From Escherichia coli (lineage in GTDB: Bacteria; Pseudomonadota; Gammaproteobacteria; Enterobacterales; Enterobacteriaceae), in assembly GCF_048403405.1 (NCBI RefSeq), contig NZ_CP183129.1: a DNA stretch of 64,000 nt; one strand, written 5' to 3'. The position numbers were made by a program. Below are positions 42,601 through 45,600 of the stretch, one piece after another; positions within the stretch are counted from its first letter, which is position 1; every line of letters starts with the position of its first letter.

Positions 42601-45600
42601 TAAATAAAACGGGAGGCGAAGGTGCCTCCTGTTTTTAGATTGTTTTCAATTGATTGATAATGAAAGGATTCGCTTGCAAAAGCAGGAGCAATTTTCGGGG
42701 TGCTCCGGTAGGTTGACGGCGTTTGGTTTCCCAGCTTTTGACCAGGTCATAACTTACCCCTACGGCGACAGCAAAATCTTGCTGACGTAAACCCGTTGCT
42801 TCACGGATCGCTTTTACATCGATTTCGCTAAAAGTATGGACGTGCTCTGGTTCAGGCGCTTCTTCACCCTTTTCGATGCGTACCATTTCTTCTGCGCTGG
42901 CAAGAAGATCAGCAAATAATTCGTCTTTCATCTGTTTTCAATGCCTCCGTTGGCATTTCGGCCATGGTGGAATTTGTGGAGCTTCAACATTAAAGCAGCT
43001 TCTCGGACAATAGTTTCAATGCCTTTCTTTGTTCTTCTGTTAAATCATCCTGTTCATTTTTAGGATAAATCAACGCCAGATAAATTCGGCCATTGCGTGT
43101 TACGTTGTAATAAATTATCCGAATGCCACCCCGTTTCCCCATTCCAGAACGGTTCCAGCGAATTTTTCTAAAACTGCCTGTGCCTGCGATAATGTCACCG
43201 GCAGTGGGATCTTGAATGAGTAGTTCCTGAAAAGCCCGGAACTCATCATCAGGTAACAATAACTGGCGGCGTTTGCTAAATCCTTGTAGTTCAATAAACG
43301 TGAACATAATGCATCCTGCGGTCTATTGATAATTATAAGTGTACCGTGTACATATTGGTAGCTAATTAGATATAAAAAAACCCCTTATCCGTTTGGATAA
43401 GGGGTCAATGAGATTTCAGCTGATTACAGCTTCGGACCAGCCGCTACCAGCGCGGCACCCGCAGGGGTGTCGGTGTATTTATCGAAGTTGTCGATAAACA
43501 GTTTCGCCAGGGTTTCAGCTTTTTCCTGCCACTGTTCCGGAGAAGCGTAGGTATTACGCGGATCGAGGATCTTAGTGTCAACACCCGGCAGCTCGGTCGG
43601 AATCGCCAGGTTAAACATCGGCAGAGTGAAGGTTTCTGCGTTATCCAGCGAACCGTTGAGGATGGCGTCGATAATGGCGCGGGTATCTTTAATCGAGATA
43701 CGTTTGCCAGTGCCGTTCCAGCCGGTGTTAACCAGATACGCCTGCGCGCCTGCCGCCTGCATACGTTTCACCAGCACTTCTGCGTACTGAGTCGGGTGCA
43801 GCGACAGGAATGCCGCGCCGAAGCAGGCGGAGAAAGTTGGCGTCGGTTCGGTGATGCCGCGCTCTGTACCAGCCAGTTTGGCGGTGAAGCCAGAGAGGAA
43901 GTGGTACTGGGTTTGATCGGCAGTCAGACGAGAAACCGGCGGCAGCACACCAAAGGCGTCTGCGGTCAGGAAGATAACTTTAGTTGCGTGGCCCGCTTTG
44001 GAAACCGGCTTAACGATGTTTTCGATGTGATAGATCGGATAAGAAACGCGGGTGTTCTCGGTTTTTGAACCATCATCAAAGTCGATAGTGCCATCTTCAC
44101 GCACGGTGACGTTTTCCAGCAGCGCATCACGACGGATAGCGTTGTAGATTTCAGGTTCCGCTTCTTTCGACAGCTTGATAGTTTTTGCGTAGCAGCCGCC
44201 TTCGAAGTTAAATACGCCGTCATCGTCCCAGCCGTGTTCGTCATCGCCAATCAGGCGACGTTTCGGGTCGGTGGAAAGGGTGGTTTTACCGGTGCCGGAA
44301 AGGCCGAAGAACACCGCAACATCGCCTTTCTCACCAACGTTGGCGGAGCAGTGCATAGAAGCGATACCTTTCAGCGGTAGCAGGTAGTTCATCATTGAGA
44401 ACATCCCTTTCTTCATTTCGCCGCCGTACCAGGTGCCGCCAATCAGCTGCATGCGCTCGGTCAGGTTAAACGCCACGAAGTTTTCGGAGTTCAGACCCTG
44501 TTCTTTCCACTGCGGATTAGTGCACTTCGCGCCGTTCATAACGATAAAGTCTGGTTTGAAACCTGCCAGCTCTTCATCGCTCGGGCGAATAAACATGTTT
44601 TTGACAAAATGCGCCTGCCAGGCCACTTCGGTGATGAAACGGACGGAAAGACGAGTATCCGGGTTCGCACCACAGAAAGCGTCGACAACGAACAGACGTT
44701 TGCCGGAAAGCTGTTTGGTCACCAGGCCTTTCAGATGCTGCCAGGTTTCCGGAGAGAGAGGTTTGTTGTCGTTCTTACCTTTGCCTTTGTCTGCCCACCA
44801 GAAAGTATCGCGAGTGGTATCGTCACGGACGATATACTTATCTTTTGGTGAACGACCGGTGAAGATCCCGGTATCGACGGCAACGGCACCCAGATTAGTT
44901 AACACCCCGCGCTCATAACCTGTCAGGCTCGGATCGAGCTCTTCCTGATACAGCAGGTCGTAGCTTGGGTTGTAAACGATATCATGTACGTCACTGATAC
45001 CATAAGCCTCGAGTTCTTGCGGGGTCAAACCATTGTTAACGCGCATTTCACTGCTCCTTAGCCAATATGTATTGCCTGAATAGTAAAGTCTTTTTGGGGG
45101 TGTTAACCGCGACAAGGCTCATAGATTTACGTATCTGGAGAAATTCATATTTGACAAAAAACTCCGTGATTCCTGTCACGAAACGGTTGCTATTATCGCA
45201 GAAATAGCATTTTAGGTGTGGAAAATGTTCTTAAAAGGTTAAATCTTGGTTTATATGGCGGGAATATTGTGAGTGGAATCGCATTCCTGAATGAAATTGA
45301 TGCAAATTCAATCGGTAAAGTATCGATTCACCACGCTAACTTTTTTTGATTATTTTCTGAAAAAAGCAAAATACTACGGCCCGGATGCGATAATTAACCC
45401 ACTTTTTGATTCTGGATAACTAACGTGGATAACGTTGAACTTTCACCCGCAACACGCTGGGGGATGATTGCTACCGGATTACTTCAGGGTCTGGTTTGCT
45501 ACCTACTGATCGCCGGGCTTGCCGGAAAAAATCTCAGTTGGATTGTTTATGGCGTGCCTGCGACCGTCGCGTTTTCATCCGTTTTACTCTTCTCCGTGAT

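What the first reader, a model, noticed from the sequence alone, without database searches (positions are those of the whole stretch)
42635..43373. HigB/RelE-like toxin and HTH antitoxin pair inserted between the envZ and pck terminators
Two small same-strand ORFs (105 aa then 98 aa, minus strand) occupy the gap between the envZ terminator and the pck terminator, a junction where the K-12 reference, as I recall it, has only intergenic DNA. The upstream protein has the GGIRIIYY...YPKNEQDDLT signature I associate with Gp49/HigB-type RelE-superfamily toxins. The downstream protein ends in a helix-turn-helix. The toxin-first order is characteristic of higBA-type modules. A TATAAT hexamer and a gtgtac direct repeat (43338-43353) lie just upstream of the toxin start and are candidate promoter and autoregulatory operator. 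This may be a stabilising or phage-defence-associated module and is strain-variable content.
Basis: partly seen in the sequence, partly recalled or inferred. Interest (0 to 1): 0.55.

Follow-up and report, generated by a model that had tools for sequence, protein, structure and literature searches.

The report
HigBA2-type toxin-antitoxin pair, envZ-pckA gap
This is a real but ordinary two-gene toxin-antitoxin module of the well-studied Vibrio cholerae HigB2/HigA2 type, found between envZ and pckA in about a quarter of E. coli genomes and already labelled as such by routine genome annotation.

Summary
Both ORFs exist exactly as described: toxin 42990-43307 (105 aa) and antitoxin 42635-42931 (98 aa), minus strand. 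The toxin is a close homologue of V. cholerae HigB-2 (PDB E 1e-23, Pfam PF06296). All four catalytic residues and the IIYY strand are conserved. The antitoxin is a HigA-2/NadS-type protein with an N-terminal toxin-binding segment and a C-terminal XRE helix-turn-helix. The module lies at envZ-pckA in 1328 of 5425 complete E. coli genomes. K-12 and the rest have 43 bp of unrelated DNA there, and about 20 genomes carry a different island. RefSeq already annotates the pair as a RelE/ParE toxin plus NadS.

Three details need correcting. The toxin is not in the Gp49 family. The "gtgtac direct repeat" is a 13-bp palindrome, TGTAC-N3-GTACA (43340-43352). It is conserved upstream of homologues in about 29 of 31 loci from other genera, which makes it a strong operator candidate. 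The pck-side hairpin belongs to the variable segment.

The same position is occupied in E. albertii, Citrobacter and Kluyvera. The module appears to move by homologous recombination of its flanks. No evidence supports phage defence. Verdict: observation confirmed, interpretation supported, low novelty.

The parts
42606..42635 (.). Bidirectional intrinsic-terminator hairpin. It ends envZ on the + strand and, read on the - strand, ends the toxin-antitoxin operon. It is shared with empty-site strains, and the left edge of the variable segment lies directly after it.
   Evidence: Terminator scan on both strands; alignment with the empty site.
42635..42931 (-). Antitoxin gene (higA2-like; PGAP name nadS), 98 aa. 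Residues about 2-20 form a helix equivalent to the toxin-neutralising segment of VcHigA2. Residues about 39-76 form the XRE-type helix-turn-helix.
   Evidence: NCBIfam NadS NF041265 scores 75.2 bits against a cut-off of 60. Pfam HTH_31/HTH_3. PDB HigA-2 E 2.7e-4 with the single sequence and 1.1e-8 with a profile, aligned end to end. The AF2 model's best match is HigA2.
42932..42989 (-). 58-nt spacer between toxin and antitoxin. It carries GGAGG (42944-42948 on the + strand, as CCTCC) 12 nt upstream of the antitoxin ATG.
   Evidence: Sequence. Other genera have GAGG 5 nt from the ATG where E. coli has GAAA.
42990..43307 (-). Toxin gene (higB2-like, Pfam PF06296), 105 aa. Predicted catalytic residues are R50, R63, Y81 and K83. 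The IIYY strand is at residues 64-67.
   Evidence: Pfam PF06296 E 1e-5. PDB HigB-2 E 1.3e-23, ungapped. The four residues are invariant in 13 homologues including VcHigB2; their catalytic role is shown in PMC5416850. AF2 model pLDDT 87.5, TM 0.75-0.85 to HigB2 structures.
43314..43317 (-). Shine-Dalgarno AGGA, 6 nt upstream of the toxin ATG.
   Evidence: Sequence. CAGG(A/G) is conserved in the five-species alignment.
43332..43337 (-). Candidate -10 hexamer TATAAT. The -35 position, 17 nt upstream, reads TACCAA, a poor match.
   Evidence: Sequence; alignment with Klebsiella TTGATT-17-TATGAT; the consensus scan does not call it.
43340..43352 (.). Candidate operator: the palindrome TGTAC-N3-GTACA, lying between the -35 position and the -10 hexamer.
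   Evidence: It is the only occurrence in the 64-kb window. It is present upstream of the toxin in 29 of 31 homologous loci, with a freely varying spacer.
43379..43406 (-). pckA terminator hairpin (12-bp stem followed by a T-run). It shields the module from pckA read-through. It is part of the variable segment and absent from empty-site E. coli.
   Evidence: Terminator scan. Comparison with the empty site. An equivalent hairpin is present in the Citrobacter and Kluyvera copies.
42636..43422 (.). The whole strain-variable segment (787 bp). In about 75% of E. coli it is replaced by 43 bp of unrelated sequence.
   Evidence: Alignment of filled and empty sites. The span difference of 744-745 bp holds across 5425 genomes.

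Best explanation
This is a functional type II toxin-antitoxin operon of the V. cholerae HigBA2 type. A single transcript starts a few bases downstream of the TATAAT at 43337-43332 and ends at the shared envZ hairpin. It encodes first a RelE-fold toxin, then the antitoxin. The toxin is predicted to enter the ribosomal A site and cleave translating mRNA (inferred from homology). The antitoxin's N-terminal segment is predicted to fold onto the toxin and neutralise it (inferred). Its C-terminal XRE helix-turn-helix dimer is predicted to bind the palindrome TGTAC-N3-GTACA next to the -10 and repress the operon (inferred from conservation and position). When the labile antitoxin is no longer replenished, free toxin would arrest translation. 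The module is accessory chromosomal content. It appears to be gained and lost in Escherichia by homologous recombination of the envZ and pckA flanks, not by a mobile element of its own.
For: Shown here by computation. The toxin matches VcHigB-2 over its full length without gaps (E 1.3e-23) and Pfam PF06296. The four residues whose alanine substitution cripples VcHigB2 (R51, R64, Y82, K84; PMC5416850) correspond to R50, R63, Y81 and K83 here and are invariant in 13 homologues. The IIYY strand is also conserved. The AF2 model superposes on HigB2 structures with TM up to 0.85. The antitoxin passes the NCBIfam NadS cut-off, its profile hits HigA-2 end to end at E 1e-8, and its model matches HigA2 best. 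Both genes are under purifying selection against Citrobacter: toxin dN 0.129 and dS 1.18, antitoxin dN 0.031 and dS 2.08. The toxin protein is identical in three E. coli strains whose flanking genes differ by 2-3%. The palindrome is conserved at the same promoter position in 29 of 31 loci from many genera, while its spacer and surroundings vary. Evidence on mobility: the E. albertii module is 98.5% identical to this one while its pckA is 93.2% identical. Strain ZH177 has K-12-like flanks except right beside the module. No integrase, IS element or repeats are present.
Against: No experiment on this E. coli module was found in the paper library. The -35 match is poor and the distal operator copy seen in most other genera is missing here, so expression level is unknown. 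The antitoxin Shine-Dalgarno sits 12 nt from its ATG. Three of the four base-contacting residues of VcHigA2 (R68, E71, N72) are replaced here by D62, K65 and S66; only R77 is kept, as R71. Half-site spacing also differs from the Vibrio operator (N3 against N9 between TGTAC and GTACA), so the binding mode cannot simply be transferred. Toxin genes are inactivated in some strains and species while the antitoxin stays intact.
Confidence: 0.85

Rival explanations
1. The pair is a decaying module. The toxin is weak or silent, and what selection actually keeps is the antitoxin, acting as a stand-alone NadS/YiaG-like transcription factor with targets beyond its own promoter.
For: Within Enterobacterales the antitoxin is far more conserved than the toxin: 85-95% against 73-83% aa identity. 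Its dN of 0.031 matches pckA (0.035) and envZ (0.024), against 0.129 for the toxin. An intact antitoxin sits beside a broken toxin in E. coli MS15046 (internal stop), Kluyvera sichuanensis (17-aa remnant), Phytobacter ursingii, Photorhabdus bodei, Photobacterium ganghwense and Enterobacteriaceae bacterium B14. K-12 keeps orphan relatives, YiaG and a PGAP-named nadS.
Against: In this window the toxin ORF is intact with all catalytic residues. It has dN/dS of about 0.11 and is identical across divergent E. coli lineages. Only one TGTAC-N3-GTACA site exists in the 64-kb window, so no second target is visible here.
Confidence: 0.1
2. The module is an abortive-infection or phage-defence system, as the first reader suggested as one option.
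For: RelE/ParE-superfamily toxins are discussed as defence toxins in PMC11980606. Both proteins hit PHROG families of unknown function (phrog_5869 at E 1e-33, phrog_2104 at E 3e-27). The site also hosts another accessory island in some strains.
Against: The toxin has no PADLOC model hit, and the antitoxin hits only generic HTH models. There are no neighbouring defence genes; the flanks are core metabolism and signalling genes. Only 9 phage records hold a homologue, all below 45% identity.
Confidence: 0.04
3. The toxin is a Gp49/HigB-type (PF05973 or Rts1 HigB-like) toxin.
For: It has toxin-first gene order and belongs to the RelE superfamily.
Against: The Pfam scan returns PF06296 as the only family even at E<=10. 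The best structural and sequence matches are all HigB-2. HigB-2 belongs to a different Pfam family from Rts1 HigB and from gp49 (PMC11980606).
Confidence: 0.01

Closest known systems
Vibrio cholerae HigB2-HigA2 (VCA0468/0469; PDB 5JAA, 5JA8, 8A0X)
   Same: Toxin-first operon. The toxin is about 49-50% identical over its full length, with the same catalytic tetrad and IIYY sliding strand. The antitoxin has an N-terminal neutralising segment and a C-terminal XRE HTH dimerisation and DNA-binding domain. An inverted-repeat operator with TGTAC half-sites lies between the -35 and -10 elements.
   Different: The antitoxin is only about 24-30% identical. Three of its four base-contacting residues differ. 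The operator here is TGTAC-N3-GTACA, against TGTACGC-N5-GCGTACA in Vibrio. The Vibrio module sits in the superintegron (from my own knowledge); this one sits between core genes. There are no experimental data for the E. coli module.
Chromosomal orthologues in Citrobacter, Kluyvera, E. albertii, Klebsiella, Leclercia and others (RefSeq 'type II TA system RelE/ParE family toxin' + 'NadS family protein')
   Same: Same two genes at 73-100% (toxin) and 85-99% (antitoxin) identity, with the same operator palindrome. In Citrobacter, Kluyvera and E. albertii the pckA-envZ position is also the same, with one operator copy and a pckA hairpin upstream.
   Different: Klebsiella, Leclercia, Pseudescherichia and others carry the pair at unrelated chromosomal sites, with two operator copies about 30 bp apart flanking a good -35 element.
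E. coli K-12 YiaG and relE-yiaG modules (PMC11980606)
   Same: YiaG is an XRE HTH protein of about 96 aa with the same architecture. PF06296 toxins are described as paired with YiaG-like antitoxins.
   Different: The antitoxin scores 65.6 bits against the YiaG equivalog cut-off of 110, so it is not YiaG. K-12 yiaG has no adjacent toxin, and the toxins described with it have extended N-termini.
Plasmid Rts1 HigB-HigA (Proteus vulgaris) and E. coli K-12 HigBA (YgjN/YgjM)
   Same: Toxin-first order and a ribosome-dependent RelE-superfamily mRNase.
   Different: These belong to different Pfam families (PF05015, PF09907), with a different toxin active site and antitoxin fold and a different neutralisation mode (PMC5416850, PMC11980606). 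There is no Pfam hit to either family here.
Acinetobacter plasmid HigBA2-type modules
   Same: PF06296-type toxin homologues at about 40% identity, abundant on small plasmids (306 Acinetobacter records).
   Different: They are plasmid-borne and much more distant. No plasmid copy above 53% identity was found apart from a mislabelled chromosome.

Membership tests
HigBA2-type TA (VcHigB2/HigA2; Pfam PF06296 toxin) | Toxin matches PF06296 and has the RelE/BECR fold of HigB2 | tested here: met
   PF06296 E 1e-5. HigB-2 E 1.3e-23, ungapped over residues 3-100. AF2 model TM 0.75-0.85 to 5JAA, 5JA8 and 5MJE.
HigBA2-type TA (VcHigB2/HigA2; Pfam PF06296 toxin) | Catalytic residues Arg51, Arg64, Tyr82 and Lys84, and the IIYY beta-3 strand | tested here: met
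   They correspond to R50, R63, Y81, K83 and I64-Y67 here. The four catalytic residues are invariant across 13 homologues. Their role is established in PMC5416850.
HigBA2-type TA (VcHigB2/HigA2; Pfam PF06296 toxin) | Toxin gene upstream of the antitoxin gene in one operon | tested here: met
   Same strand, 58-nt gap, one hairpin upstream and one downstream. Co-transcription itself was not tested.
HigBA2-type TA (VcHigB2/HigA2; Pfam PF06296 toxin) | Antitoxin with an N-terminal toxin-binding segment and a C-terminal XRE HTH dimer domain | tested here: met
   End-to-end alignment to HigA-2 (E 2.7e-4 single sequence, 1.1e-8 profile). HTH_3/HTH_31 at residues 39-76. The model matches the HigA2 C-terminal domain at 2 A rmsd. 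Disorder of the free N-terminus is not testable here.
HigBA2-type TA (VcHigB2/HigA2; Pfam PF06296 toxin) | Autorepression through an inverted-repeat operator overlapping the promoter | tested here: inconclusive
   A conserved palindrome lies at the right place. However, its spacing and the recognition residues differ from the Vibrio system, and binding cannot be tested with these tools.
HigBA2-type TA (VcHigB2/HigA2; Pfam PF06296 toxin) | Toxicity by ribosome-dependent mRNA cleavage, neutralised by the cognate antitoxin | not testable with these tools
   This requires expression and in vitro translation assays.
NadS family (NCBIfam NF041265) | Whole-protein score at or above the curated cut-off of 60 bits | tested here: met
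   75.2 bits, profile positions 3-92 of 94. PGAP names the identical protein nadS.
YiaG (NCBIfam NF007481 equivalog) | Score at or above the cut-off of 110 bits | tested here: not met
   65.6 bits. It is a relative, not an equivalog.
   Only PF06296 is reported, even at E<=10.
MqsA antitoxins (TIGR03830 / PF15731) | Zinc-binding CxxCG N-domain and a score above the cut-off | tested here: not met
   31.3 bits against a cut-off of 61.8, with only the HTH half matching. PF15731 E 0.11. There are no cysteines in the N-terminal part.
Catalogued anti-phage defence systems (PADLOC-DB 2.0) | Toxin or antitoxin matches a system-specific model | tested here: not met
   The toxin has 0 hits. The antitoxin hits only generic HTH_VI and a weak RmrA match.

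The most novel reading that the evidence does not exclude
The NadS-type antitoxin may be more than a toxin neutraliser. Within Enterobacterales it evolves as slowly as housekeeping genes and survives as an orphan when the toxin decays. It might therefore be a host transcription factor with additional TGTAC-N3-GTACA targets. The envZ-pckA junction would then be a recombination hot spot where such small cassettes are exchanged between Escherichia, Citrobacter and Kluyvera.
Probability: 0.15. Interest if true: 0.45.

Novelty: already known. Interest (0 to 1): 0.18.

Why it matters
As a type, this adds nothing new. HigB2/HigA2 is structurally and mechanistically characterised, and RefSeq already labels these exact proteins in more than 1300 E. 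coli genomes. The modest value lies in the details. It is a clean, experimentally untouched E. coli orthologue of the Vibrio model system. Its operator candidate is sharply defined and phylogenetically supported, with a different half-site spacing. Its antitoxin is unusually conserved. It also shows a bare two-gene cassette being swapped among enteric genera by flank recombination at one core-genome junction.

Tried and rejected
1. Scar hypothesis. I asked whether the 43 bp unique to empty-site strains is a remnant of the module's promoter or of the antitoxin 3' end. A local alignment against the 787-bp segment scored 18. That score was reached or exceeded by 331 of 500 shuffles, so the idea was rejected.

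2. Flanking direct repeats or a target-site duplication. The apparent similarity between TAGATTGTTTTCAATTGATT (42636-) and GAGATTTCAGCTGATT (43411-) is not supported. The left copy is simply the conserved C-terminal coding sequence of the antitoxin, and the repeat finder reports nothing there.

3. Gp49 membership: no Pfam hit.

4. Defence-system membership: no PADLOC hit for the toxin.

5. An RNA element in the region: Rfam returns only chance-level hits, E about 0.9 and far below gathering scores.

6. Origin of the name NadS, and any paper on this E. coli locus. Searches for NadS with toxin-antitoxin or antitoxin, for the two WP accessions, and for HigB2/HigA2 in E. coli found nothing specific. 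One exception is a PIRT-Seq note that a K-12 gene named nadS is expressed.

7. A plasmid or phage source: the nearest plasmid copies are at most 53% identical and phage copies at most 43%.
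Full report
**Observation**

The two minus-strand ORFs exist exactly as described. One runs 42990..43307 (105 aa) and the other 42635..42931 (98 aa). Both start at ATG and they are 58 nt apart. The quoted motifs GGIRIIYY and YPKNEQDDLT are present in the 105-aa protein. TATAAT on the minus strand corresponds to 43332-43337. The two gtgtac copies lie at 43339-43344 and 43346-43351. 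Terminator-like hairpins flank the pair at 42606-42635 (called on both strands) and 43379-43406 (minus strand). K-12 MG1655 has only 75 bp between pck and envZ.

**What the proteins are**

The toxin gives one Pfam hit, PF06296 'RelE' (E 1e-5), and nothing else even at E<=10, so it is not Gp49/PF05973. Against solved structures it matches V. cholerae HigB-2 over residues 3-100 without a gap, at E 1.3e-23.

The HigB2 structure paper shows that Arg51, Arg64, Tyr82 and Lys84 are needed for activity. It also shows that the 65-IIYY-68 strand slides when the antitoxin binds (PMC5416850). In the ungapped alignment these residues correspond to R50, R63, Y81, K83 and I64-Y67 here. The four catalytic residues are invariant in a 13-sequence alignment that spans Enterobacterales, marine gammaproteobacteria and VcHigB2. 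An AlphaFold2 model (pLDDT 87.5) superposes on HigB2 crystal structures with TM 0.75-0.85.

The antitoxin passes the curated NCBIfam cut-off for 'NadS family protein' (75.2 against 60 bits). It falls below the cut-offs for YiaG and MqsA. It has an XRE helix-turn-helix at residues 39-76. It aligns end to end with HigA-2, at E 2.7e-4 as a single sequence and 1.1e-8 as a profile. Its model finds HigA2 as the best structural match.

The pair is therefore a member of the HigBA2 class of type II toxin-antitoxin modules. A recent survey calls this class PF_RelE toxins paired with YiaG/HigA2-like antitoxins (PMC11980606).

**Distribution in E. coli**

I queried with the module plus 500 bp of each flank. 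Of 5425 complete genomes, 1328 (24.5%) cover the whole query. Nearly all the others match only the two flanks, with a span shorter by 744-745 bp. A more sensitive search with the two genes alone finds the same 1328 genomes (≥80% of the query; partial matches in two more), all on chromosomes. PGAP annotates the pair as 'type II toxin-antitoxin system RelE/ParE family toxin' plus 'nadS'.

The filled and empty states differ by a replacement. Window 42636-43422 (787 bp) stands against 43 bp of unrelated sequence. The pck-side hairpin lies within the 787 bp. Empty-site strains use the one shared hairpin for both genes.

About 20 genomes carry a third state, a 2.6-kb island with an SMI1/KNR4 family gene and two hypothetical genes.

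**Promoter and operator**

I aligned the upstream regions from E. coli, Citrobacter, Klebsiella variicola, K. oxytoca and Pseudescherichia vulneris. What is conserved is the palindrome TGTAC-N3-GTACA directly upstream of the -10, not a direct repeat.

Across 31 loci the exact motif is found upstream of the toxin start in 29, and the three spacer bases vary freely. It occurs once in the 64-kb window, at 43340-43352. Most loci outside the pckA-envZ position have two copies about 30 bp apart, bracketing a good -35 element (for example TTGATT-17-TATGAT). All pckA-envZ loci (Escherichia, Citrobacter, Kluyvera) have only the proximal copy, with the pckA hairpin where the distal copy would be.

In E. 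coli the -35 position reads TACCAA, and the consensus scan does not call a promoter on this strand.

For comparison, the footprinted VcHigA2 operator is TGTACGC-N5-GCGTACA, lying between the -35 and across the -10. Its base contacts come from R68, E71, N72 and R77 (PMC11006873). The equivalent residues here are D62, K65, S66 and R71. The logic is therefore shared, but the geometry and probably the readout differ.

**Evolution and mobility**

Close homologues (73-83% toxin identity) are chromosomal in many enteric genera. The pckA-TA-envZ position is shared by E. albertii, three Citrobacter species and two Kluyvera species. Klebsiella, Leclercia, Pseudescherichia and others hold the pair between unrelated core genes. 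No integrase, IS element or terminal repeat accompanies it.

Against Citrobacter, synonymous divergence of the module (dS 1.2-2.1) is at least that of the flanks (0.83-0.90). That rules out a recent transfer between those two genera.

Within Escherichia the pattern is the opposite. The module differs at 0.8-1.6% between E. coli lineages whose flanks differ at 2-3%. The E. albertii module is 98.5% identical to this one while its pckA is 93.2% identical. Strain ZH177 has K-12-like envZ and pckA except in the few hundred bases next to the module. These comparisons rest on few sites, but they agree with spread by homologous recombination of the flanks.

In E. albertii the module is followed by a 275-bp envZ 3' fragment, two pckA fragments and then the SMI1/KNR4 island. 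This is a record of successive recombination events at the junction.

**An unusual detail**

Within Enterobacterales the antitoxin is consistently more conserved than the toxin, at 85-95% against 73-83% identity. Its dN of 0.031 against Citrobacter equals that of pckA and envZ, while the toxin's is 0.129.

Several genomes keep an intact antitoxin beside a broken toxin. These are E. coli MS15046 (internal stop), Kluyvera sichuanensis, Phytobacter ursingii, Photorhabdus bodei, Photobacterium ganghwense and Enterobacteriaceae bacterium B14. This pattern feeds the minority hypothesis that the antitoxin has a value of its own.

In this window, however, the toxin is intact. It is under purifying selection (dN/dS about 0.11) and is identical across divergent E. 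coli lineages. The straightforward reading, an active module, is therefore preferred.

**Function**

No evidence points to phage defence. The toxin has no PADLOC hit, there are no defence neighbours, and phage-borne homologues are few and distant. The PHROG hits are to families of unknown function. Rfam finds no RNA element. No paper on this specific E. coli locus was found.

**Verdict**

The feature is a known, routinely annotated kind of module. Interest is low. The conserved operator and the slowly evolving antitoxin are the only points worth a specialist's second look.

Noticed in passing
L011:6540-9190 (E. coli EC42405, same envZ-pckA junction): A third state of the junction: a 2.6-kb island encoding an SMI1/KNR4 family protein and two hypothetical proteins. 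It is present in about 20 of 5426 complete E. coli genomes, and at 89% identity in E. albertii. The junction therefore looks like a small hot spot for accessory cassettes.
   Followed up: partly
L015:3674-4080 (E. albertii NBRC 107761): Downstream of the module lie a 275-bp envZ 3' fragment, a 73-bp internal pckA fragment and a 58-bp pckA 3' end, followed by the SMI1/KNR4 island. These duplicated pieces of both flanking genes mark nested recombination events.
   Followed up: partly
L012:2390-2707 (E. coli MS15046); L041, L039, L036, L037, L038: The toxin is inactivated (internal stop at codon 22, truncation to 17 or 50 codons, or frameshifts) while the adjacent antitoxin ORF stays intact. This recurs in several genera.
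   Followed up: partly
window 43424-44020 (3' 600 bp of pckA): The pckA 3' end next to the module carries most of the gene's polymorphism: 32 of 41 differences from K-12 fall in the first 600 nt. This mosaic pattern suggests repeated recombination around the junction.
   Followed up: partly
PLSDB record NZ_OL790696.1: A 4.8-Mb E. coli record filed among plasmids holds the only 100% identical 'plasmid' copy. It is evidently a mislabelled chromosome.
   Followed up: no
window 45047-45115: The mechanical ORF for pckA starts at a TTG at 45115 (563 aa). The annotated 540-aa protein starts at the ATG at 45046 (MRVNNGL...). The longer ORF is an artefact of ORF calling.
   Followed up: yes
window ~45200-45420 (between pckA and yhgE); L001:5710-5859: RefSeq annotates a 49-aa hypothetical protein (WP_153302632.1) just upstream of yhgE in the strain identical to this window. 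Strain 1190 (L002), which has the empty site, has no such CDS annotated.
   Followed up: no
E. coli K-12 BW25113 (PMC12350097): A PIRT-Seq study reports expression of a PGAP-annotated K-12 gene named nadS (RS26030) that is not in EcoCyc. K-12 may thus keep an orphan relative of this antitoxin in addition to yiaG. The DNA-level search found no copy at 65% identity or above.
   Followed up: partly
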